In this document: positions 2,655 through 17,848 of the stretch, in pieces
Layout of the letters: each line of letters opens with the position of its first letter
Position numbering within the stretch: the stretch's first letter is position 1
From: Patescibacteria group bacterium
GTDB taxonomy: Bacteria > Patescibacteriota > Patescibacteriia > 2-01-FULL-39-33
Reading direction: 5' to 3'
Assembly (NCBI GenBank): GCA_041650895.1
Contig: JBAZKF010000002.1
Location: 152,425-170,272, forward strand
Length of the DNA: 17,848 nucleotides
Position numbers and translations under genes: made by a program
Notes under the pieces: model-generated
The model's input: the letters and a program-made list of their open reading frames with translations, nothing else
The model's database searches: none
Told to the model about the DNA's origin: nothing

Positions 2655-2692
2655 TTTTCAACACTTCACACAGCTGTGTGAAGTGTTGAAAA
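2655..2692. repeat. 38-bp perfect palindrome TTTTCAACACTTCACACAG|CTGTGTGAAGTGTTGAAAA (19-bp arms, no spacer), likely an operator or strong hairpin between the hydrogenase module and pgk
   Basis: Read directly: the left arm 2655-2673 is the exact reverse complement of 2674-2692. It contains TTCACA/TGTGAA half-sites. Its right arm overlaps the putative pgk -35. Confidence 0.9.
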
Positions 2693-6188: not shown

Positions 6189-7766
6189 ATGCCTGTAAAA
6201 TCTAAAAAATCACAAAAAACAGAAATCGCTAAAAAAGTTCTTTTGCTCATATTAGACGGTTGGGGAATCGGCAAAGAAGACGGTTCCAATCCGATTTTTT
6301 TAGCTAAACCGAAGTTTATCAATTCTTTGTATAAGAAGTATCCCTGGACGGAATTATGCGCGTCCGGACTTTGCGTCGGTTTGCCGCCAGACCAGGTGGG
6401 AAACTCTGAAGCCGGCCACATGAACTTGGGAGCCGGACGCATTGCCGATCAGGACGTGATTAAGATTTCCAAACACATCGGTACTGGCGAATTTTTCAAG
6501 AACCCCGCTTTTTTGGCGGCTATTAATCACGCCAAAAAGAATAAAACCGCTTTGCATTTGATGGGTATGCTGTCTAACGGCCAGAGTCCCCACAGCGATC
6601 CTGATCATCTTTTGGCTTTACTGACCTTAGTGCGCAAGCATGAGTTAAAAAAAGTTTATTTGCATTTATTTACCGATGGTCGCGATTCACCGCCTATGTC
6701 GGCCTTGAAATCCATCATGGCTTTGGAGCGTTCGCTTAAACCCAATGAGATCATCTCTACGGTTATCGGTCGGTTTTACGCCATGGATCGCAAGAAAGTC
6801 TGGACCAGGACTATCGCGGCTTACAACGCCATGACCGACGGCCGGGATGCGCATTATGCTGACAGTCCTCAGGCCGGCATCGACCGCGCTTACAATGCTA
6901 ATATATCCGATGAATTCATCGAGCCTATTGTCATTAGGCAAAAAGGAAAAATGACGCCGCGTATCAGCGATAATGACGCCATTATTTTCTTTAATTTGCG
7001 CAGCGATCGCGCCAGGCAAATGGCCAAGCCGTTTGTCCAGCATCAATTTGAAGAAAAGAATCCAGGGTTTGTTAAGCGTAAACGAGTATTGCGTAATGTT
7101 TCCTTTGTGGCTATGACTGATTTCGGACCGGATTTGGATAGTATTCTGACCGCTTATCCTTCGGAAGATTTAAAAAACACCTTGCCTATAGTGTTGAAGA
7201 ACAAGAAGCAGATTTATATCGCCGAGAGCGAGAAATACGCTCATGTGACTTTCTTTTTTAATGGTGGTTATGCTGATCCGGTGGGCGGTGAAGAAAGAAT
7301 TAATATTCCTTCGCCTCATGTGGATAGATACGACAAGACGCCGGCTATGTCCACCAAAGGAATAACCAGCAGAATTATTGCTTCATTAAGAAAATACGAT
7401 TTTATCTGCGCCAACATCGCTTGTCCTGATATGATCGGCCACACCGGCAATATGGAAGCGGCGCAAGAAACAGTTAAGGCTGTTGATAAATACGTCAAGC
7501 AAATCGTGGCGGCCGCGCTTAAGAATGATGCCGTGTTGCTCATCACTGCCGATCATGGCAATATAGAATACAAACTCAATTTGGAAACAGGGGAGAGGTT
7601 GACCGAACATACCACTAACCCAGTGCCATTTATTGTTGTAGGTGGCAGTTTCGGCAAGTCGCTAAAATTAAAGCGCGATGGCGTTTTGGGTGATGTCGCC
7701 CCTACTGTTATTAAACTGTTCGGTTTAAATAAACCCAAGGGAATGAGTAAGAATAGCTTGATTTAA
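6189..7766 (+). CDS. gpmI: 2,3-bisphosphoglycerate-independent phosphoglycerate mutase (iPGM), paralog 1 (more diverged)
   Basis: LILDGWG, GNSEAGHMNLGAG (active-site Ser retained), DGRD, GRFYAMDR, FNLRSDRAR, EKYAHVTFFFNGG, DMIGHTGN and ITADHGN motifs. The GGVHSH region is altered to GQSPHS. Confidence 0.9.
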   Translation: MPVKSKKSQKTEIAKKVLLLILDGWGIGKEDGSNPIFLAKPKFINSLYKKYPWTELCASGLCVGLPPDQVGNSEAGHMNLGAGRIADQDVIKISKHIGTGEFFKNPAFLAAINHAKKNKTALHLMGMLSNGQSPHSDPDHLLALLTLVRKHELKKVYLHLFTDGRDSPPMSALKSIMALERSLKPNEIISTVIGRFYAMDRKKVWTRTIAAYNAMTDGRDAHYADSPQAGIDRAYNANISDEFIEPIVIRQKGKMTPRISDNDAIIFFNLRSDRARQMAKPFVQHQFEEKNPGFVKRKRVLRNVSFVAMTDFGPDLDSILTAYPSEDLKNTLPIVLKNKKQIYIAESEKYAHVTFFFNGGYADPVGGEERINIPSPHVDRYDKTPAMSTKGITSRIIASLRKYDFICANIACPDMIGHTGNMEAAQETVKAVDKYVKQIVAAALKNDAVLLITADHGNIEYKLNLETGERLTEHTTNPVPFIVVGGSFGKSLKLKRDGVLGDVAPTVIKLFGLNKPKGMSKNSLI

Positions 7767-7769
7767 ATT

Positions 7770-9362
7770 ATGACTGATAGCAAAAACAAACGACTTAAAC
7801 CGGTAATACTGATGATTTTGGATGGTTGGGGAGCGGCCCCGCCTTCAAGATCCAATGCCATTACTCTGGCCAAAACGCCGGGGGTGACAGGATTAATAAA
7901 AACTTATCCGGCTTTGACTTTACAGGCCTCGGGCGAAGCCGTGGGCTTGTCTTGGGGGGAAATTGGCAACTCTGAAGTCGGGCATCTTAATTTGGGCTCG
8001 GGCAAGCTGGTTTACCAGAATTTGCCGCGCATTAATAAATCCATTTCTGACGGCGCCTTTTTTGAGAATGAAAAGTTTATCAATGCCATAAAACACGCTA
8101 AGAAAAACAAAGGCAAAGTTCATTTGCTGGGGTTGATTTCTTCGGGCGGCGTGCACAGCCATATTGATCATTTATTCGCTTTGTTGGAGCTGTGTCAGAA
8201 AGAAAAATTCCGCGAGGTATATATTCATGGCGTTTTGGACGGCCGTGACATGCCCTATAATTCCGGCATTGATTTTGTGGAAAAAATAAAAAACAAATCC
8301 GAGGAATTGGGTGTCGGCCGCATTGCCACTCTGTCCGGCCGGTTTTATGCTATGGATCGCGACAATCATTGGGAGCGCATCGTTCTGGCTTATAACGCCA
8401 TGGTCAAAGGTGAAGCCACGGAAAGATTCAGTGATCCGAGCGAGGCGGTCAGCGCTTCTTACGATAAAAAGATCTATGATGAGGAATTTGTGCCGGTAGT
8501 GATCGAAGATGGCGGCCGGCCTGTGGCCACCATCGCCCCCGGCGATGCCGTGATATTTTTTAATTTTCGCGCGGATCGCGCTCGAGAGATTTCCAAAGCG
8601 TTCGTTTTGCCCGGTTTTGAAAAGTTTGAACGGCAATATTTGAAAGATTTATATTTCGTGGCTATGACCGAATACGAGAAGGATGTCCCGATGGAAGTCG
8701 CTTTTCCTCCTGAAACCATTAAAGATCCGTTGGCTAAGGTTATAGCCGATGCCGGCCTAACTCAATTGCATATCGCGGAGACGGAGAAATACGCCCACGT
8801 CACTTTTTTCTTTAATGGCGGTACCGAGCAGGAATTTACCGGTGAAGACAGGGTGTTGGTGCCGTCGCCACGCGTGTCTTCTTATGCGGAGAAGCCGGAA
8901 ATGTCAGCCAAGGAAGTGACGCAGAAAACCATCGACGCTATTATGGCTGATAAGTATGATTTTATTGTGTTGAATTTTGCCAATTGTGATATGGTCGGCC
9001 ATACTGGAGACTTAAAAGCCACAATCAAAGCCGTGGAAGCAGTGGACAGTTGCGTCAAAAAAATCACAGAAGTGGTTTTGGCCAAAGGCGGAGCGGCCTT
9101 AATTACCGCTGATCATGGCAATGCCGAGGAGTTGCTCAATTTACAATCAGGCGAAATAGACAAGGAACACAGCACTTATCCGGTACCGCTTATTATCGTC
9201 GGCAAGGAATGGGAGGGTAAGAACGCCGGTTTTCCGGAAGTGCCTGGCGGTGATCTATCTTTGGTTCAGCCGGCTGGCATACTGTCCGATGTGGCACCGA
9301 CGATTATCAAGATTATGGGGCTCGAACAGCCGGCGGAAATGACCGGTAAACCGTTGATTTAA
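7770..9362 (+). CDS. gpmI: 2,3-bisphosphoglycerate-independent phosphoglycerate mutase (iPGM), paralog 2 (canonical)
   Basis: ILDGWG, GNSEVGHLNLGSG, SSGGVHSHIDHL, DGRD, GRFYAMDRD, FNFRADRARE, EKYAHVTFFFNGG, DMVGHTGD and ITADHGN. Starts 3 nt after paralog 1. Confidence 0.9.
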   Translation: MTDSKNKRLKPVILMILDGWGAAPPSRSNAITLAKTPGVTGLIKTYPALTLQASGEAVGLSWGEIGNSEVGHLNLGSGKLVYQNLPRINKSISDGAFFENEKFINAIKHAKKNKGKVHLLGLISSGGVHSHIDHLFALLELCQKEKFREVYIHGVLDGRDMPYNSGIDFVEKIKNKSEELGVGRIATLSGRFYAMDRDNHWERIVLAYNAMVKGEATERFSDPSEAVSASYDKKIYDEEFVPVVIEDGGRPVATIAPGDAVIFFNFRADRAREISKAFVLPGFEKFERQYLKDLYFVAMTEYEKDVPMEVAFPPETIKDPLAKVIADAGLTQLHIAETEKYAHVTFFFNGGTEQEFTGEDRVLVPSPRVSSYAEKPEMSAKEVTQKTIDAIMADKYDFIVLNFANCDMVGHTGDLKATIKAVEAVDSCVKKITEVVLAKGGAALITADHGNAEELLNLQSGEIDKEHSTYPVPLIIVGKEWEGKNAGFPEVPGGDLSLVQPAGILSDVAPTIIKIMGLEQPAEMTGKPLI

Positions 9363-13203: not shown

Positions 13204-13870
13204 TTCAAGATAGTGGTTGTGGATAACTGAACAAAATTCAATTATTGACAATATTATCTTGTGGCAGCTTAAAAGCTGTTTTAAGAGAACCTTCGGGTTC
13301 TTTGTCAGGGCGTCAGGCGGCTTATGTCGTGTGTCGCCCTTGACAAAGGTTCCGAATAATGGAACTCTGAATGTTAATTAAAAAAATATTCGCGGCAGCT
13401 TGTCGCCGCGTCGATATGATTAAGGCGTATGCTTGTCCGCCTAAATCCGATCCAAGGTCTAAAGCCGAGGATCTTAGGAGGAGATTAAGCTGAAGAGGGG
13501 GCCTGGCTTGAAATTATATATTCGCCAATCGCCTTAATTCACTTCTTCAAGTCTTGATTATATCGATGCGGTAGCAATGTCTGGCCGTCTAAGCAGGCGG
13601 GCAAACGCGCGCTGCAAGTACTTTCGAAGGAAGATTTTCCCCACCGCGTCGGGCTTTTATCCCGCCGGATCGGTAGACCTCCTCCTTTCCCCGGGGAGGC
13701 GTTATGTAGCGATACATGCGCCTCCCCCACACGCCTCAGACAGTATGGTTCGAGAGCATATAATCAAATCCTCACAAAGGAAGCTTGGTTTTACGCTTAC
13801 GGCCGGGGTACTGTTTGAGGCGTGTGTTGCAAAAAAGCATTTTTCATTTTACGTTACGAGTAATCTCGTG
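13204..13870 (+). ncRNA. candidate large structured non-coding RNA / structured 5' leader (class unknown), GC-rich
   Basis: No ORF with a plausible translation start. Many GC-rich helices are readable directly: GAACC-UUCG-GGUUC (UUCG tetraloop); CTTTGTCAGGGCG...CGCCCTTGACAAAG long-range helix; CGCGGC...GCCGCG; GGGGAGGCG-[AUGUA-GCGA-UACAU]-CGCCUCCCC (nested GNRA hairpin); CACACGCCTCA...TGAGGCGTGTG (an 11-bp helix enclosing about 65 nt). By eye the GC content is roughly 55-60%, against about 40-45% in the flanking genes. Confidence 0.4.
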
Positions 13871-13880
13871 AAGGAGGCCT

Positions 13881-14078
13881 ATGATAGTACAATGTTGCGT
13901 TTGTCGTAGGGTGCGTTTGTCTGGCGTGTCTGGCGTCTCTTGGGCGGAGCAAGCCATACCACCCGGTGAGGATGTTTCCCATGGCTACTGCCCGGAATGC
14001 GCCGCAAAAGCGTATGAGGGCATGGAGAGGGAATTGACCAACCGGCACCAAAGGAGCCCGACTGATGGCAAAGGGTAA
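13881..14078 (+). CDS. small 4-Cys zinc-ribbon protein (65 aa), paralog 1
   Basis: AAGGAGG sits 3-4 nt upstream of the ATG. Pattern CxxC-x12-W-x15-YCPEC-x4-AY. Low-complexity repeats occur in the N-terminal part, which lowers confidence. Confidence 0.45.
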   Translation: MIVQCCVCRRVRLSGVSGVSWAEQAIPPGEDVSHGYCPECAAKAYEGMERELTNRHQRSPTDGKG

Positions 14079-14253
14079 GTGCCCGGCTTGTTTTAAAATC
14101 GAAGTGGCGCCGGGGCAGTGGAAAAACACCGCCTTACCGGTCAAAGAAGAAACATTGCCCAAATACTGTCCGAGATGTAGCGAGCATAACGCTTATGTCC
14201 GGGAGAGCATTCGGGTATCCAAGGAGTTGGCGGGCGGCGCGTCGGGAAAATAG
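14065..14253 (+). CDS. small 4-Cys zinc-ribbon protein (62 aa), paralog 2, translationally coupled to paralog 1
   Basis: AAGGAG sits 8 nt upstream of the ATG. The start overlaps the end of paralog 1 (ATGGCAAAGGGTAA). Pattern CPAC-x9-W-x15-YCPRC-x4-AY has the same W-to-YCPxC spacing as paralog 1. Confidence 0.5.
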   Translation: MAKGKCPACFKIEVAPGQWKNTALPVKEETLPKYCPRCSEHNAYVRESIRVSKELAGGASGK

Positions 14254-14265
14254 AACATTCTGTTA

Positions 14266-14303
14266 GGAGGAAGCCGCGCGGCTTCCTCCTTTAAAATTGA
14301 TTT
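14266..14303 (+). terminator. strong GC-rich Rho-independent terminator ending the GC-rich island
   Basis: AGGAGGAAGCCGC|GCGGCTTCCTCCT is a perfect 13-nt inverted repeat (14266-14291), followed by TTTAAAATTGATTTTGATTT. Confidence 0.65.
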
Positions 14304-14412
14304 TGATTTATCCACAGCCAAGCTCTTGACACTGTATTGTTTTTATAAAAATTTAATATATAATTTTATATTAAGGGATGACATTAAGCATCAGGCATTT
14401 TCAATCGCACTT

Positions 14413-14975: not shown

Positions 14976-15025
14976 TATTTTTTTCTCCTTTAGGAAGAAG
15001 AAGATTAAGAGGGGCTTATTTTCAT

Positions 15026-15094
15026 GATACTTTTCTCTAGAGAAAAGTATCACCAAAGAGTCGCGAGCGAATAAAATCATGGCTAGATTTTTTA
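15026..15094. repeat. repeated intergenic element, copy 1: 26-bp perfect palindrome GATACTTTTCTC-TA-GAGAAAAGTATC + AGTCGCGA + hairpin AAAATC-ATGGCTA-GATTTT
   Basis: Palindrome at 15026-15051 (centre TCTAGA). AGTCGCGA at 15059-15066. Hairpin at 15073-15091. The element aligns over about 60 nt with 16542-16606. Confidence 0.7.
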
Positions 15095-15118
15095 CTCCGC
15101 AATATTTTTAATAGCCAT

Positions 15119-15148
15119 TTGACTAAAACTTGTTAAATTGGTTATAAT
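15119..15148 (+). promoter_or_regulatory. sigma70-type promoter for pheS (TTGACT-17/18-TATAAT), near-leaderless transcript
   Basis: TTGACT at 15119-15124, TATAAT at 15143-15148, ATG at 15158, no SD. Confidence 0.6.
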
Positions 15149-15157
15149 ATATTCAAT

Positions 15158-16216
15158 ATGAAAGAAAAACTCAGCCAATTAAAGGCGCAATTCACCGAGG
15201 AATCGGCAAAGGTCAAATCAGCTTCCGAGCTGGAAGAATTGGAGAATAGATTTTTGAGCCGTAAAAGTGGATTGCTGACCGGCATCATGAAGGGGATCAA
15301 AGATGTGGCTAAAGAAGAGGTGGCGGAAATCGGCGCCTTGGCTAATGAAACCAAAGATTATATTGTTGAGGGACTGGAAACACTTAAGGGAAACTTGGGC
15401 GGTATCGGTTCCTCTAATTTCGATTTTACCGTACCCGGCCGCAAGCCGGCTGTCGGCCATTTGCATTTAGCCACCATTGCCATTCGCGAGATTGAAAGTA
15501 TCCTAGAGCCGTTAGGCTTCGTCAGGACGCGCCATCCGGATGTAGAATGGGATTATTATGCTTTTGAAACTTTGAACATGCCCGGCGATCATCCGGCTCG
15601 CGATGACTGGGAAACCTTTTTTATTGATGATTCTCCGATCAAGATGAATTTGCCGGCTAATTCAAAGAAATTAGTCAAAGAGGGGAGACGATTACTAACT
15701 CCTCATACTTCTAGCATTCAGGTACGGGAAATGGAGAGGGGCGTTCTGCCGATTCGGATGATGAATATTTCCAAATGCTATCGTCGGCAGATTGATGTTT
15801 CTCATGTGCCGATGTTCCATCAATTTGAGGGGCTAGTGATTGACAAGGGGATTAATATTACTCACTTGAAGGGCACGATTGATTATTTTGTTAAGAAATT
15901 TTTCGGCGAGGATCGCACAATTCGTTTGCGGCCGCATCATTTTCAATTCACTGAGCCGAGTTTTGAAGTGGATATTTCCTGCGGACTCTGCCATGGCGCA
16001 GGTTGCAAGATGTGTAAAGAGGGTTGGTTGGAGCTGGCTGGCGCCGGCATGGTTCATCCAAATGTGCTTAAAGCCGGCGGCATTGATCCGGAGAAGTATT
16101 CGGGTTTTGCTTTCGGCTGGGGTGTCGAGCGATGCTATTCCATGAAGTCGGACCTGAATATTGATGATTTAAGGTTGATGTATAAGAATGATTTGAGGTT
16201 TAATGAGCAGTTTTAG
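15158..16216 (+). CDS. pheS: phenylalanine--tRNA ligase alpha subunit
   Basis: Class II aaRS motifs: PHHFQFTEPSFEVD, the Cys cluster ISCGLCHGAGCKMCKEGW (as in Bacillus PheS), GWLELAGAGMVHPNVL, SGFAFGWGVERCYSM, DLRLMYKNDLRF. No pheT follows within the window. Confidence 0.95.
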   Translation: MKEKLSQLKAQFTEESAKVKSASELEELENRFLSRKSGLLTGIMKGIKDVAKEEVAEIGALANETKDYIVEGLETLKGNLGGIGSSNFDFTVPGRKPAVGHLHLATIAIREIESILEPLGFVRTRHPDVEWDYYAFETLNMPGDHPARDDWETFFIDDSPIKMNLPANSKKLVKEGRRLLTPHTSSIQVREMERGVLPIRMMNISKCYRRQIDVSHVPMFHQFEGLVIDKGINITHLKGTIDYFVKKFFGEDRTIRLRPHHFQFTEPSFEVDISCGLCHGAGCKMCKEGWLELAGAGMVHPNVLKAGGIDPEKYSGFAFGWGVERCYSMKSDLNIDDLRLMYKNDLRFNEQF

Positions 16217-16230
16217 AGATTATATATTAT

Positions 16231-16533
16231 ATGACAGAATATAAGTTAGAAGCAGAATCTGCAAGATTTGATTTAAAAGGTAATCCCGTCGATCTCTCTA
16301 CTATTAGAGGTGAGGTGACAATTAACTTCTTTTTCGTTGTATATAATATTTTTTTTACATTATTAATTGCTATTATTGGTGTTATACCGATACATTTGCT
16401 GTGTTGGCAATTGAAAATATTATTATTTATTATTGTGTTAATTGGGTTATTTTTTTGTTTTCGTATAGTATATTTTAGGAAATTTTTAACAAAAATAAGA
16501 TCTACTATATTTAGTTTTAAAGAGAGGTTGTAA
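16231..16533 (+). CDS. hypothetical small membrane protein (100 aa), AT-rich
   Basis: Two to three hydrophobic helices. Strongly AT-rich codon usage, unlike the upstream genes. Confidence 0.4.
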   Translation: MTEYKLEAESARFDLKGNPVDLSTIRGEVTINFFFVVYNIFFTLLIAIIGVIPIHLLCWQLKILLFIIVLIGLFFCFRIVYFRKFLTKIRSTIFSFKERL

Positions 16534-16541
16534 TCATTTTA

Positions 16542-16606
16542 GTATTACTTTTCTAGAAAAGTAATACAAAAGTCGCGACCGGAAAAAATCATGGCTGGAT
16601 TTTACG
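16542..16606. repeat. repeated intergenic element, copy 2: 26-bp perfect palindrome GTATTACTTTTCTAGAAAAGTAATAC + AGTCGCGA + hairpin AAAATC-ATGGCTG-GATTTT
   Basis: Palindrome at 16542-16567, AGTCGCGA at 16571-16578, hairpin at 16585-16603. A further TTTTCTAG lies at 16647-16654 inside the inverted repeat TTGCAG...CTGCAA. Confidence 0.7.
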
Positions 16607-16706
16607 CTCCACTCCTGAAAATTTCCTGACGCTTCGCTTGCAGAAATTTTCTAGTCGTTCCTGCAAAAAATCGCACAATATTTTTTAATGGTCGCAATAG
16701 CAATGT

Positions 16707-17219
16707 ATGCCAAATATAAAACCTAAATCACAAATAGAAGTTGATCAGAATATCTTAGATTTTTTAAATGGAATGCACATTGATAAGCCCGAAGATTTGG
16801 TAACCTTAAAGAATAAGATAATTAAATCCCTTGAATTCCGATCATATAATAATAAAACAAAAAAGCATGCTGATAGTATCCAATGGAAAAGAACTGCTTC
16901 TGAGATCTTGTCAGATGGTTATGTTTATAAAGGAAAGGCGTGCTCTGATTTGGCGGTAGTTTTCCTTGCTCTATGTAAGGCAACCGGGATTAATGGCCGC
17001 TTGGTTAAATTAAAATCAATAGATAACGAACATACTCACTCGATTGTTGAGGTTAAATTAAAGAGGGCTTGGTATAGAATTGATCCATCAAGTAGAGATT
17101 CCTTGCCATTTAAAGGTGAGTTATCAAGTAAATCAATTTGGAATAAAAAGTTTAAAGTTTGGCGGAAAGGAAAAGATGTCTGGGATTTAGGCCTTAAAGA
17201 TATAAAATCAGAATTATGA
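16707..17219 (+). CDS. transglutaminase-like cysteine-protease superfamily protein
   Basis: Candidate catalytic triad in the canonical order and spacing: GKACSDLAVVFLALCKATGI (Cys), HTHSIVEV (His), WYRIDPS (Asp). Confidence 0.65.
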   Translation: MPNIKPKSQIEVDQNILDFLNGMHIDKPEDLVTLKNKIIKSLEFRSYNNKTKKHADSIQWKRTASEILSDGYVYKGKACSDLAVVFLALCKATGINGRLVKLKSIDNEHTHSIVEVKLKRAWYRIDPSSRDSLPFKGELSSKSIWNKKFKVWRKGKDVWDLGLKDIKSEL

Positions 17220-17641
17220 TAAATAAAATTTGGAAAAAAATTTATAATATTTTCACAAATGTACCAGTCTATCTAAAATTGGCAATTATTCCGATTTTAT
17301 TTTACTTAATTTTATTTGTATCTTTTGTCCTATTGTCTCTTATAGGATTTATAGCACAAAGGTTTGAAATTTTTGGAGCTTTTCTTAGTATTATAGCGCT
17401 TCCCATAATTATAATTATGTTTGTTTTCGAATTCTTTACTCTACTTACTGTTAGTATTTTATCACTATTTATTCCGAACAATATTATAAAAGAAATGACT
17501 ACTCCAGCTATTTTTGGCGGTGATATTTCGAATAACTTTGGTGTTTTTGCGTCATTAGTATTTTGGGTTATTATTGGATTTTTTGTCGGCTTAATAATAT
17601 TTTTTAAAAAGCGTTATTTTAATAATAATAAAATTAATTAA
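17216..17641 (+). CDS. hypothetical integral membrane protein (141 aa), AT-rich
   Basis: Start overlaps the previous stop (ATGA). Three to four TM helices. Very AT-rich. Confidence 0.5.
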   Translation: MINKIWKKIYNIFTNVPVYLKLAIIPILFYLILFVSFVLLSLIGFIAQRFEIFGAFLSIIALPIIIIMFVFEFFTLLTVSILSLFIPNNIIKEMTTPAIFGGDISNNFGVFASLVFWVIIGFFVGLIIFFKKRYFNNNKIN

Positions 17642-17706
17642 CTATTATATTATTAATGATTTATGAACCTAAATATCTCTTACAACTGGCTAAAGTCGCT
17701 CGCCCG

Positions 17707-17834
17707 TTGTCATTCCGACCGGAGCGAAGCGTAGTGGAGGAATCCCTTTTGACAGTAAAAACCCATTAAAATAGTTTATTTAGAGTTAAAAGCGATCCCT
17801 CCACTCGGCCTTGAGGCCTCGGTCGGGATGACAA
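17707..17834. repeat. GC-rich 130-nt imperfect inverted repeat / long hairpin with internal GGCC-TTGA-GGCC mini-hairpin and about 45-nt AT-rich apical region
   Basis: TTGTCATTCCGACCG (17707-17721) pairs with CGGTCGGGATGACAA (17820-17834). AGTGGAGGAATCCC (17733-17746) pairs with GCGATCCCTCCACT (17792-17805). The interior contains TTGACA-17-TAGTTT. Confidence 0.6.
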
Positions 17835-17848
17835 AATGGTTTAATGAC

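What the first reader, a model, noticed from the sequence alone, without database searches (positions are those of the whole stretch)
15026..15094. Repeated roughly 70-nt intergenic element (26-bp perfect palindrome + AGTCGCGA + AAAATC-ATGGCTR-GATTTT hairpin) upstream of pheS and again upstream of the transglutaminase-like gene
Two copies at 15026-15094 and 16542-16606 share an ACTTTTCT(C)TAGA(G)AAAAGT palindromic core of 26 bp, a downstream AGTCGCGA box, and an identical small hairpin. Similarity continues for about 60 nt. Each lies 120-150 bp upstream of a start codon, just upstream of the predicted promoter. A third TTTTCTAG half-core sits at 16647. This looks like the operator of a dimeric regulator with an auxiliary element, or a miniature repeat family. 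The hairpin also encodes a conserved micro-ORF start in both copies: MARFFTPQYF, Phe-rich, upstream of pheS, and MAGFYAPLLKIS.
Basis: seen in the sequence. Interest (0 to 1): 0.6.

Follow-up and report, generated by a model that had tools for sequence, protein, structure and literature searches.

The report
Dispersed folded intergenic repeat, not operator
The two roughly 70-nt "operators" are the conserved end of a 190-220 bp non-coding repeat that is scattered through the genomes of one group of tiny Patescibacteria (relatives of Buchananbacteria) and folds into a long hairpin on one strand, so it is a new small interspersed repeat family and not a pheS regulator.

Summary
Both copies exist, and such palindromes are far beyond chance. 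The unit, however, is larger than described: about 190-220 nt. Copy 2 (16526-16726) is full length. Copy 1 (15010-15118) is an internally deleted copy that abuts the -35 box of the pheS promoter.

I found 19 copies at unrelated intergenic sites in at least 7 related Patescibacteria assemblies. They lie next to adk, pyk, lgt, rpsB/tsf, rpsO, a HIT gene and others. Three copies in one genome are 98-100% identical with unrelated flanks. Close relatives have empty, filled or decayed sites.

Eleven full copies share a 54-pair structure, and 26 of its pairs show compensatory changes. It is a roughly 150-nt bulged rod plus a 12-bp hairpin. G·U pairs (22 against 4) place the folded strand opposite to pheS.

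No Rfam family, plasmid or viral sequence matches. No reading frame is conserved.

Two orthologous pairs are about 96% identical while synonymous sites in the flanking genes are 58-63% identical. Some copies are therefore under selection.

Best reading: a BOX/REPIN-like interspersed repeat that acts as a single-stranded fold. The operator reading and the Phe-rich leader-peptide reading are not supported.

The parts
16526..16726 (-). Copy 2: full-length element. The folded strand is the minus strand. The core is 16526-16701, followed by a poorly conserved A/T-rich tail to about 16726.
   Evidence: Covariance model R1 scores 163.2 bits, E 2e-44, over the full model. The right limit comes from the comparison with L035.
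16542..16567 (.). P1 of copy 2: a 26-bp perfect palindrome, forming an 11-bp stem with a CUAG loop. It starts 8 nt after the stop codon of ORF100.
   Evidence: Helix 5 of the consensus has 8 of 12 pairs with changes on both sides.
16575..16580 (-). GCGACC, one strand of the 6-bp helix that closes the rod.
   Evidence: It pairs with GGTCGC at 16690-16695. Variants covary: GCGAGC/GCTCGC in L008 and L024, GCGGCC/GGCCGC in L026b and L121, and a G·U pair in L025 on the minus-sense strand only.
16690..16695 (-). GGTCGC, the partner strand of the closing helix.
   Evidence: pairs 7-12 with 144-149.
16626..16641 (-). Conserved apical loop: CTGACGCTTCGCTTGC on the plus strand, GCAAGCGAAGCGUCAG on the minus strand. 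It holds the GCGNAGC mini-hairpin motif.
   Evidence: GCG-N-AGC is kept with N = A, C, G or T among copies.
16647..16654 (.). It is really part of an internal stretch of copy 2, next to helix 3.
   Evidence: The same position reads TTTTCTAG or TTTTTTAG in the sister copies L023 and L030.
15010..15118 (-). Copy 1: an internally deleted copy. It keeps P1, the linker and both rod arms but lacks the central part. Its last base abuts the -35 box of the pheS promoter.
   Evidence: R1 scores 60.2 bits, E 5e-15. Its first 81 nt are 97.5% identical to copy L008 of another genome. The site is empty in L023, L034 and L035 and holds only a 24-nt remnant in L033.
15025..15052 (.). P1 of copy 1: a 28-bp perfect palindrome.
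15059..15084 (.). AGTCGCGAGCGAATAAAATCATGGCT, the conserved linker and 3' rod arm (minus sense) of copy 1.
15119..15148 (+). Native pheS promoter, TTGACT-18-TATAAT, giving a leaderless mRNA. It is adjacent to the element but not part of it.
   Evidence: It is conserved in four relatives that lack the element.

Best explanation
The finding is the conserved P1-proximal third of a 190-220 bp non-coding small interspersed repeat. The repeat is specific to a clade of Patescibacteria related to Buchananbacteria.

Anatomy, read on the strand complementary to pheS:
- a roughly 150-nt bulged rod closed by GCGACC/GGUCGC;
- two conserved, roughly 32-nt inverted arms and a variable centre;
- an apical GCGNAGC loop;
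- a GACUYUUUGG linker;
- a 11-13 bp perfect hairpin (P1).

How it most likely works (inferred). The element has been copied to new extragenic sites through a single-stranded intermediate whose fold is the recognised feature. This resembles REPIN, BOX or MITE-type repeats. The enzyme would be encoded elsewhere in the genome. New sites are usually at the 3' ends of genes and beside REP-like hairpins.

The two copies in the window:
- Copy 1 is a decaying insertion between a terminator and the pheS promoter.
- Copy 2 is an intact copy in the hypervariable pheS-pheT spacer.

Some intact copies are kept by selection. A host-level role is therefore likely, but it is not identified.

Shown: the family, its structure, the strand bias, insertion polymorphism, decay and conservation.
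Inferred: the single-stranded copying mechanism and any role in the host.
For: Dispersal.
- There are 19 copies: 8 in one MAG, 2 in the window genome, and the rest in at least 5 other assemblies.
- The flanking genes are unrelated housekeeping genes, and no transposase is nearby.

Recent copying.
- L004, L005 and L006 lie on three contigs of one genome and are 98-100% identical.
- Their flanks are only 26-34% identical.

Presence and absence.
- The site upstream of HIT is filled in L010 and L025 and empty in L017.
- The site upstream of pheS is filled in the window, holds a remnant in L033, and is empty in L023, L034 and L035.
- The lgt 3' end is filled in L026 and empty in L120, L121 and L122. 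In L026, Lgt is lengthened from 260-263 aa to 278 aa by reading into the element.

Decay that keeps the ends.
- Copy 1, L018 and L017 keep both ends but lack or have replaced the centre.
- Another hairpin is inserted inside L026b.

Structure.
- 95.4% of cells are paired, against 84.4% in shuffles.
- 26 of 54 pairs change on both sides; 0 of 500 shuffles reach this, and slid controls give 4-12.

Strand.
- G·U pairs number 22 on the minus-sense strand and 4 on the plus-sense strand.
- All 11 copies fold better on the minus-sense strand.
- In L026b, a CC to UU change gives two U·G pairs on the minus-sense strand only.

Not coding: every frame has stop codons in every copy.

Precedent: REPINs show frequent compensatory changes and hairpins in ssDNA or mRNA (PMC3116915). 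In BOX elements the terminal modules pair around a variable centre (PMC3049150).
Against: - No terminal inverted repeats or target-site duplication could be defined.
- No candidate mobilising enzyme was seen in about 260 kb of loci.
- The copy number is low, about 8 per genome.
- Orthologous copies are far more conserved than neutral sites, which a purely selfish repeat does not predict. Window copy 2 and L023 match at 126 of 132 core bases, while pheS third codon positions are 58% identical. L026b and L121 match at 179 of 186 bases, while rpsO third positions are 63% identical.
- The folded strand is mostly opposite to the neighbouring genes. In the window it is the C-rich strand. This is not the strand that IS608-type fork-dependent transposition would use.
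Confidence: 0.5

Rival explanations
1. It is a multi-copy family of structured non-coding RNA genes of about 190 nt. They would be transcribed from the minus strand (antisense to pheS) and act as RNA, for example as a protein-bound scaffold or an antisense regulator. New copies would arise by duplication.
For: - The strand-specific G·U pattern and 26 covarying pairs.
- Conservation at the level of second codon positions in two orthologous pairs, loops included.
- In L026b and L121 the RNA sense runs in the same direction as the neighbouring genes.
Against: - No conserved promoter lies upstream of the RNA 5' end. That 'tail' is only 52-73% identical in orthologues, and inspecting the upstream sequences of the aligned copies showed no shared -35/-10.
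- No U-tract terminator follows P1.
- In copy 2 and L023 the promoter would have to lie inside the next gene.
- Internally deleted copies that keep both ends, truncated copies and nested insertions look like a mobile repeat.
- No Rfam family matches.
Confidence: 0.25
2. It is a site that functions as folded single-stranded DNA. It could be a chromosomal analogue of a single-strand origin (an RNA-polymerase priming site), or an attC-like recombination site that moves short gene cassettes.
For: - The architecture resembles ssoA: a strand-specific imperfect hairpin of about 160 nt with a conserved motif in the terminal loop (PMC8860593, PMC5703833).
- The apical loop reads nAGCGT in all 11 copies and TAGCGT in 3. 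The ssoA motif CS-6 is TAGCGT (PMC4598088).
- GCGNAGC is a known stable DNA mini-hairpin motif (my own knowledge).
- The element sits directly 3' of small variable ORFs in the pheS-pheT spacer. It folds on the strand opposite to those ORFs, as attC sites do.
Against: - R1 against pT181 palA scores only 7.1 bits, E 0.13.
- The RSB motif is matched only loosely.
- blastn against 72,556 plasmids finds nothing.
- No Rep or relaxase gene lies nearby.
- The attC core (RYYYAAC/GTTRRRY) is absent.
- There are no same-orientation arrays, and L031 holds two inverted copies.
- Most neighbours are housekeeping genes.
Confidence: 0.08
3. It is a cis-acting element in the plus-sense mRNA. It could be a 3'-UTR or intercistronic stabiliser or attenuator, possibly with a translated 11-12 codon micro-ORF.
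For: - In most contexts the element lies between a stop codon and the terminator, or between genes of one operon. It would then be co-transcribed in plus sense.
- AAAATCATGG resembles native start contexts such as AAATCATATG.
- 10 of 12 full copies keep an ATG...TGA frame.
Against: - On the plus-sense strand the G·U pairs become C·A mismatches: 45 mismatches against 27.
- The micro-ORF residues are not conserved. Both substitutions between copy 2 and L023 are non-synonymous.
- The frame is broken or shortened in L010, L024, L026b and L121.
- Copy 1 lies after a terminator and before a promoter.
Confidence: 0.07
4. It is the operator of a dimeric transcription factor plus an auxiliary box, controlling pheS and the transglutaminase-like gene.
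For: - Perfect palindromes with a conserved YTTTTCT/AGAAAAR core.
- Copy 1 lies just upstream of the pheS promoter.
Against: - The outer arms covary, and the centre length varies from 0 to 4 nt.
- Copies lie at the 3' ends of unrelated genes and between convergent genes.
- Relatives keep the pheS promoter without the element.
- The conserved unit is about 200 nt with long-range pairing.
Confidence: 0.03

Closest known systems
BOX elements of Streptococcus pneumoniae (boxA-boxB-boxC small interspersed repeats; PMC3049150)
   Same: - Intergenic, multi-copy and about 100-300 nt.
- The two terminal modules pair to form a long stem, while the central module varies in presence and length.
- They contain chance ORFs.
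- They can sit inside operons.
   Different: - No sequence similarity, and a different phylum.
- This element has an extra perfect hairpin (P1) outside the rod.
- It has about 8 copies per genome rather than more than 100.
- It shows a strand bias in G·U pairs and strong conservation of orthologous copies.
REPINs, mobilised by RAYT transposases (PMC3116915)
   Same: - Two inverted conserved segments around a less conserved spacer form a hairpin in ssDNA or RNA.
- Compensatory changes are common.
- They are extragenic.
- Singlet or decayed remnants exist.
- Inverted doublets occur, as in L031.
   Different: - No RAYT gene was seen, though this could not be searched genome-wide.
- The arms are about 32 nt and A/T-rich, not GC-rich REPs with a GTAG-type head.
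- The element is about twice as long and far less abundant.
ssoA-type single-strand origins of rolling-circle plasmids (PMC5703833, PMC8860593, PMC4598088)
   Same: - A strand- and orientation-specific imperfect hairpin of about 160 nt.
- A conserved hexamer, (T)AGCGT, in the terminal loop.
- Conserved sequence at the base of the stem.
   Different: - Chromosomal and multi-copy, with no Rep, relaxase or double-strand origin nearby.
- RSB is not conserved.
- There is no significant model or blastn match.
Classical MITEs such as ERIC and Correia elements
   Same: Short, A/T-rich, highly base-paired and dispersed in intergenic regions, with internal-deletion derivatives.
   Different: - No terminal inverted repeats at the true ends.
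- No target-site duplication was found at the one site with good empty-site comparisons.

Membership tests
Operator of a dimeric transcription factor | The same half-site sequence is kept at all sites. | tested here: not met
   The outer arms covary (GATAC, GGTACC, GCCCC, GTTAC, CAATAC). Only a T-rich/A-rich core is shared, and the centre varies from 0 to 4 nt.
Operator of a dimeric transcription factor | Sites lie at promoters of a functionally coherent gene set. | tested here: not met
   The neighbours are adk, pyk, lgt, rpsB/tsf, rpsO, HIT, dacA-like, ELP3-like and pheS. Five contexts lie between convergent genes.
pheST-type attenuator (Phe-rich leader peptide) | A Phe-rich leader ORF with alternative terminator and antiterminator, specific to and conserved upstream of pheS. 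| tested here: not met
   The same ORF occurs next to unrelated genes. The four pheS relatives compared at this site (L023, L033, L034, L035) lack the intact element and keep a leaderless promoter. No terminator follows.
Rfam RNA families (release 15) | A match to a curated covariance model. | tested here: not met
   There were no gathering-score hits in the window. The only sub-threshold hit on the element's rod region itself was icd-II at 18 bits (gathering score 99), and the rest were hairpin noise.
Small interspersed repeat / MITE | Multiple dispersed copies with unrelated flanks, including near-identical ones. | tested here: met
   There are 19 copies. L004, L005 and L006 are 98-100% identical with flanks 26-34% identical.
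Small interspersed repeat / MITE | Insertion polymorphism between related genomes. | tested here: met
Small interspersed repeat / MITE | Terminal inverted repeats and a target-site duplication. | tested here: inconclusive
   The inverted arms are internal, because P1 lies outside them. No direct repeat flanks the lgt insertion. The ends are known only to within a few nucleotides.
Small interspersed repeat / MITE | A cognate transposase in the same genome. | not testable with these tools
   Whole genomes could not be scanned. None was found in the loci held.
REPIN-RAYT | Two inverted conserved repeats forming a hairpin, with compensatory changes. | tested here: met
   Arms of about 32 nt. Helix 1 has 29 pairs, 9 of them changed on both sides.
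REPIN-RAYT | A single-copy RAYT gene flanked by the repeat. | not testable with these tools
   Not seen in about 260 kb of loci.
IS200/IS605-derived PATE | Similar subterminal hairpins at both ends. | tested here: not met
   Only one P1-type hairpin per element.
ssoA single-strand origin | A strand-specific imperfect hairpin of about 160 nt with CS-6 (TAGCGT) in the terminal loop. | tested here: inconclusive
   The architecture fits. The loop reads nAGCGT in 11 of 11 copies and exactly TAGCGT in 3 (PMC4598088).
ssoA single-strand origin | RSB (TTATGCCGAGAAAATTT) at the stem base, and residence on a rolling-circle replicon. | tested here: not met
   Only ATGC..GAAAA..ATTG is shared with pT181 palA. 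R1 scores 7.1 bits, E 0.13. There are no plasmid hits. The setting is chromosomal.
Integron attC | R''/R' cores RYYYAAC/GTTRRRY, and same-orientation arrays of cassettes. | tested here: not met
   The closing helix is GCGACC/GGTCGC. The copies are dispersed or inverted.
Protein-coding gene | An open frame conserved across copies. | tested here: not met
   Every one of the six frames has at least 1 stop codon in every copy.

The most novel reading that the evidence does not exclude
Intact copies are individually kept by selection as strand-specific structured nucleic acids. In that case the family is either a previously undescribed multi-copy ncRNA of about 190 nt in Patescibacteria, or a chromosomal folded-ssDNA site (sso- or attC-like). 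It would not be a merely selfish repeat.
Probability: 0.3. Interest if true: 0.7.

Novelty: new member of a known kind. Interest (0 to 1): 0.45.

Why it matters
Patescibacteria (the Candidate Phyla Radiation) have tiny, streamlined genomes, so a proliferating structured repeat of about 200 nt is unexpected baggage there. This family gives a concrete, testable case, with a strand-specific fold and orthologous copies as conserved as second codon positions of ribosomal-protein genes. It may be a mobile element that the host has put to use, or an unrecognised RNA or ssDNA device.

In practice, the result stops the element from being mis-annotated as a pheS operator or leader peptide. It also explains spurious C-terminal extensions of neighbouring genes, such as Lgt at 278 aa instead of about 261 aa.

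Tried and rejected
- **Rfam.** Searches at gathering and permissive thresholds gave nothing.
- **Viral contigs.** Three pattern scans plus model screening of 83 loci gave only chance hits. L032 lies inside a helicase gene, and L049 is an unrelated hairpin.
- **Plasmids.** blastn found nothing.
- **Micro-ORF or leader peptide.** Rejected from codon-level comparison.
- **Minus-strand small protein.** A 50-aa frame is open in L023 but stopped in the window and elsewhere.
- **Promoter for a minus-strand RNA.** Inspecting the upstream sequences of the aligned copies showed no conserved -35/-10.
- **P1 as a terminator.** No U-tract on either strand.
- **TIR or TSD.** Not resolvable.
- **Orientation rules.**
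  - In co-directional gene pairs the plus sense equals the gene sense in 6 of 7 cases. These are not independent, and L026b is an exception.
  - The GC-skew orientation fits in 6 of 7 cases, but the skews are mostly weak, and L031 is a clear exception.
  - Neither pattern is significant.
- **Integron-cassette idea.** No attC core and no arrays.
- **ssoA homology.** Only the architecture and a loop hexamer agree.
- **DNA-parameter folding of copy 2.** It does not separate the strands: -28.7 against -28.0 kcal/mol.

Full report
**1. Observation**

The window is Patescibacteria-like, at 43% GC. It is identical to part of a 314,752-bp contig from an ENA metagenome assembly, and NCBI names the identical PheS protein as coming from a Patescibacteria group MAG.

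The two sites are as described.
- Perfect palindromes lie at 15025-15052 (28 bp) and 16542-16567 (26 bp).
- Each is followed by AGTCGCGA-N6-AAAATCATGGCT, at 15059-15084 and 16571-16596.
- The composite pattern has 2 matches against 0.01 expected.
- Perfect palindromes with arms of at least 10 nt number 4 against 0.05 in shuffles.

**2. The real unit is larger and belongs to a family**

A scan of one genome per species with GTCGCGA-N6-AAAATCATGGC found 16 stretches.
- 7 copies are in one Candidatus Buchananbacteria MAG.
- 2 copies are in a related Patescibacteria MAG.
- The other 7 hits are in unrelated phyla, at about the rate expected by chance.

A JGI metagenome scan added copies from five further samples.

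Alignment shows that similarity continues for 190-220 nt.
- Copy 2 of the window is full length.
- Copy 1 has lost its central part but keeps both ends.

A covariance model built from 11 full copies gave these results.
- It re-finds copy 2 at 163 bits and copy 1 at 60 bits.
- It finds extra copies: L026:782-999, a divergent copy in L031 that sits inverted next to another, and L121:3066-3263.
- It finds none in 21-kb loci around pheS in three relatives whose PheS is 92%, 83% and 84% identical.

In all there are 19 copies plus one 24-nt remnant.

**3. Structure and strand**

The 11 full copies share a consensus of 54 pairs. It consists of:
- a rod of about 150 nt closed by GCGACC/GGUCGC;
- two A/U helices separated by conserved internal loops;
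- a variable centre that may carry a GC hairpin;
- an apical hairpin whose loop reads GCAAGCG-N-AGCGUCAG;
- a single-stranded GACUYUUUGG linker;
- the 11-13 bp hairpin P1.

Support for the structure:
- 26 pairs change on both sides.
- 95.4% of cells pair, against 84.4% in shuffles.
- 0 of 500 shuffles reach the observed values, and slid controls give 39-51% paired.
- The closing helix exists in three compensated versions: GCGACC/GGTCGC, GCGAGC/GCTCGC and GCGGCC/GGCCGC.

Evidence for the folded strand:
- The same helices hold 22 G·U pairs when read on the strand opposite to pheS, and 4 when read on the pheS strand.
- Every copy folds more stably on that opposite strand.
- Single substitutions in L025, L012, L017, L026b and L121 give wobble pairs on that strand only.
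- With DNA energy parameters, copy 2 alone does not separate the strands.

Its bases belong to the long-range helices.

**4. What it is not**

- No Rfam family matches.
- There are no plasmid or viral relatives.
- No reading frame is open across copies.
- The ATGGCN micro-ORF recurs next to unrelated genes, varies at first and second codon positions, and is frameshifted or shortened in four copies.
- pheS in four relatives keeps the same leaderless TTGACT-18-TATAAT promoter without the element.
- The neighbours are unrelated housekeeping genes.
- Many copies lie between convergent genes or overlap a stop codon.

Together these points exclude an operator with a regulon and a pheS attenuator.

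**5. Signs of a proliferating repeat**

- Three copies on different contigs of one genome are 98-100% identical, and their flanks are unrelated.
- Sites are polymorphic among relatives.
  - Upstream of HIT the site is filled in L010 and L025 and empty in L017.
  - Upstream of pheS, the window holds the deleted copy. L033 holds only the first 24 nt, followed by a different hairpin repeat. L023, L034 and L035 are empty.
  - The lgt 3' end is filled in L026, where Lgt reads into the element and becomes 278 aa instead of 260-263 aa. It is empty in three relatives.
- Decayed copies keep the ends and lose or replace the centre: copy 1, L018 between rpsB and tsf, and L017.
- A 20-nt GC hairpin is inserted in the loop of L026b.
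- REP-like hairpins (GTCATTCCCGCGnAGGCGGGAATCCAGG) abut the P1 end of at least 7 copies.
- The pheS-pheT spacer that holds copy 2 is itself hypervariable.

**6. Signs of selection**

| Orthologous pair | Element core identity | Flanking gene identity | Third codon positions |
|---|---|---|---|
| Window copy 2 vs L023 | 126/132 (95.5%), no indels | pheS 79.5% | 58% |
| L026b vs L121 | 179/186 (96.2%) | rpsO 81.8% | 63% |

- In the first pair the flanking small ORFs are not detectably homologous.
- The second pair shares the rare GCGGCC helix. The left flank and the tail are only 41% and 73% identical.
- L015 and L014 are 95% identical.
- L010 and L025 sit at the same intergenic site and are only 80% identical. 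They belong to different subfamilies and may be independent insertions.
- Copy 1's retained 81 nt are 97.5% identical to L008 of another genome, but only 75% identical to copy 2 of its own genome.

A purely selfish, fixed insertion should drift at the neutral rate. At least some copies are therefore constrained in sequence as well as in structure.

**7. Mechanism**

I commit, at about 0.5, to a BOX/REPIN-like small interspersed repeat. Its recognised and selected form would be the fold of one strand, and it would be copied by an enzyme encoded elsewhere. REPINs and BOX elements show the same mix of inverted conserved arms, a variable centre, compensatory changes and remnants (PMC3116915, PMC3049150).

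The main rival, at 0.25, is a multi-copy minus-strand ncRNA. It explains the strand bias and the conservation. It lacks a conserved promoter and a terminator, and it fits poorly with deletions that spare both ends.

A folded-ssDNA site is kept at 0.08.
- In favour: ssoA origins are strand-specific hairpins of about 160 nt with TAGCGT in the loop (PMC4598088, PMC8860593, PMC5703833). This element has nAGCGT and GCGNAGC in its apical loop.
- Against: the model scores pT181 palA at only 7.1 bits (E 0.13), RSB is not conserved, and the setting is chromosomal.
- An attC-like reading fails on the core sequence and on the lack of arrays.

A plus-sense mRNA element is kept at 0.07 and an operator at 0.03. 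Both are disfavoured for the reasons in sections 3 and 4.

**8. Limits**

- Most copies were found with a pattern that fixes 18-21 bases, so apparent invariance there is partly due to how they were found.
- The divergent L031 copy shows that the family is wider than the pattern.
- Element ends are known only to within a few nucleotides.
- Whole genomes could not be searched for a partner enzyme.
- The orientation and GC-skew trends are not significant.

**9. Verdict**

The operator and leader-peptide readings are not supported. The element is a new family of a known kind. It is of moderate interest because of its host clade, its one-strand fold and the unexplained purifying selection.

Noticed in passing
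window 17665-17848, continuing in L001 12507-13133: The first 36 nt of pheT (ATGAACCTAAATATCTCTTACAACTGGCTAAAGTCG) occur twice, with 3 mismatches between the two. They bracket an insert of about 590 nt made of a hairpin repeat and a 97-aa GIY-YIG nuclease ORF. The complete 785-aa pheT starts after the second copy. This looks like a free-standing homing-endonuclease insertion with duplication of the target.
   Followed up: partly
window 17706-17835 (inverted arms 17733-17759 / 17779-17805): A hairpin repeat of about 130 nt, TGTCATTCCGACC...GGTCGGGATGACA. A half copy follows the GIY-YIG ORF. A related copy interrupts the element remnant upstream of pheS in L033.
   Followed up: partly
window 16217-17664; L033, L034, L035, L023: The pheS-pheT spacer is a hotspot of variable content. 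L034 has nothing there. L033 has Mrr, GIY-YIG and an ORF. L035 has REP-like hairpins, a transglutaminase-like gene and an ORF. The window and L023 have small AT-rich ORFs plus the element.
   Followed up: partly
L010 660-790; L026 600-780; L033 9600-9900; L035 5200-5280: A second, shorter repeat family (GTCATTCCCGCGnAGGCGGGAATCCAGG, REP-like) occurs in runs. It sits immediately next to the P1 end of at least 7 element copies.
   Followed up: partly
window 13205-13231 and 14303-14329: A 27-nt inverted repeat whose arms each hold a perfect DnaA-box sequence, TTATCCACA (2 found, 0.12 expected). It brackets 1.07 kb of unusually GC-rich DNA (up to 53%) with no Pfam or Rfam match. Two small CxxC ORFs lie at 13881-14253. 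It is unexplained.
   Followed up: partly
window 2655-2692: A 38-bp perfect palindrome, TTTTCAACACTTCACACAG/CTGTGTGAAGTGTTGAAAA, between a short hypA-like ORF and pgk. It is unrelated in sequence to the element.
   Followed up: no
window 14265-14290: A 26-bp GC-rich perfect palindrome, AGGAGGAAGCCGCGCGGCTTCCTCCT, directly after the second CxxC ORF. It is probably a terminator-like hairpin.
   Followed up: no
window 6189-7766 and 7770-9362: Two tandem paralogous genes for cofactor-independent phosphoglycerate mutase. The arrangement is also present in relatives.
   Followed up: no
window 15119-15160: The pheS promoter TTGACT-18-TATAAT ends 9 nt before the ATG, and there is no Shine-Dalgarno sequence. 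The mRNA is therefore leaderless. The layout is conserved in four relatives. Several other genes start in an AAATCAT-ATG context.
   Followed up: partly
L026 1793-2629 (lgt): The annotated Lgt protein of the Buchananbacteria MAG is 278 aa because the reading frame runs into the repeat. Relatives without the insertion have 260-263 aa.
   Followed up: yes
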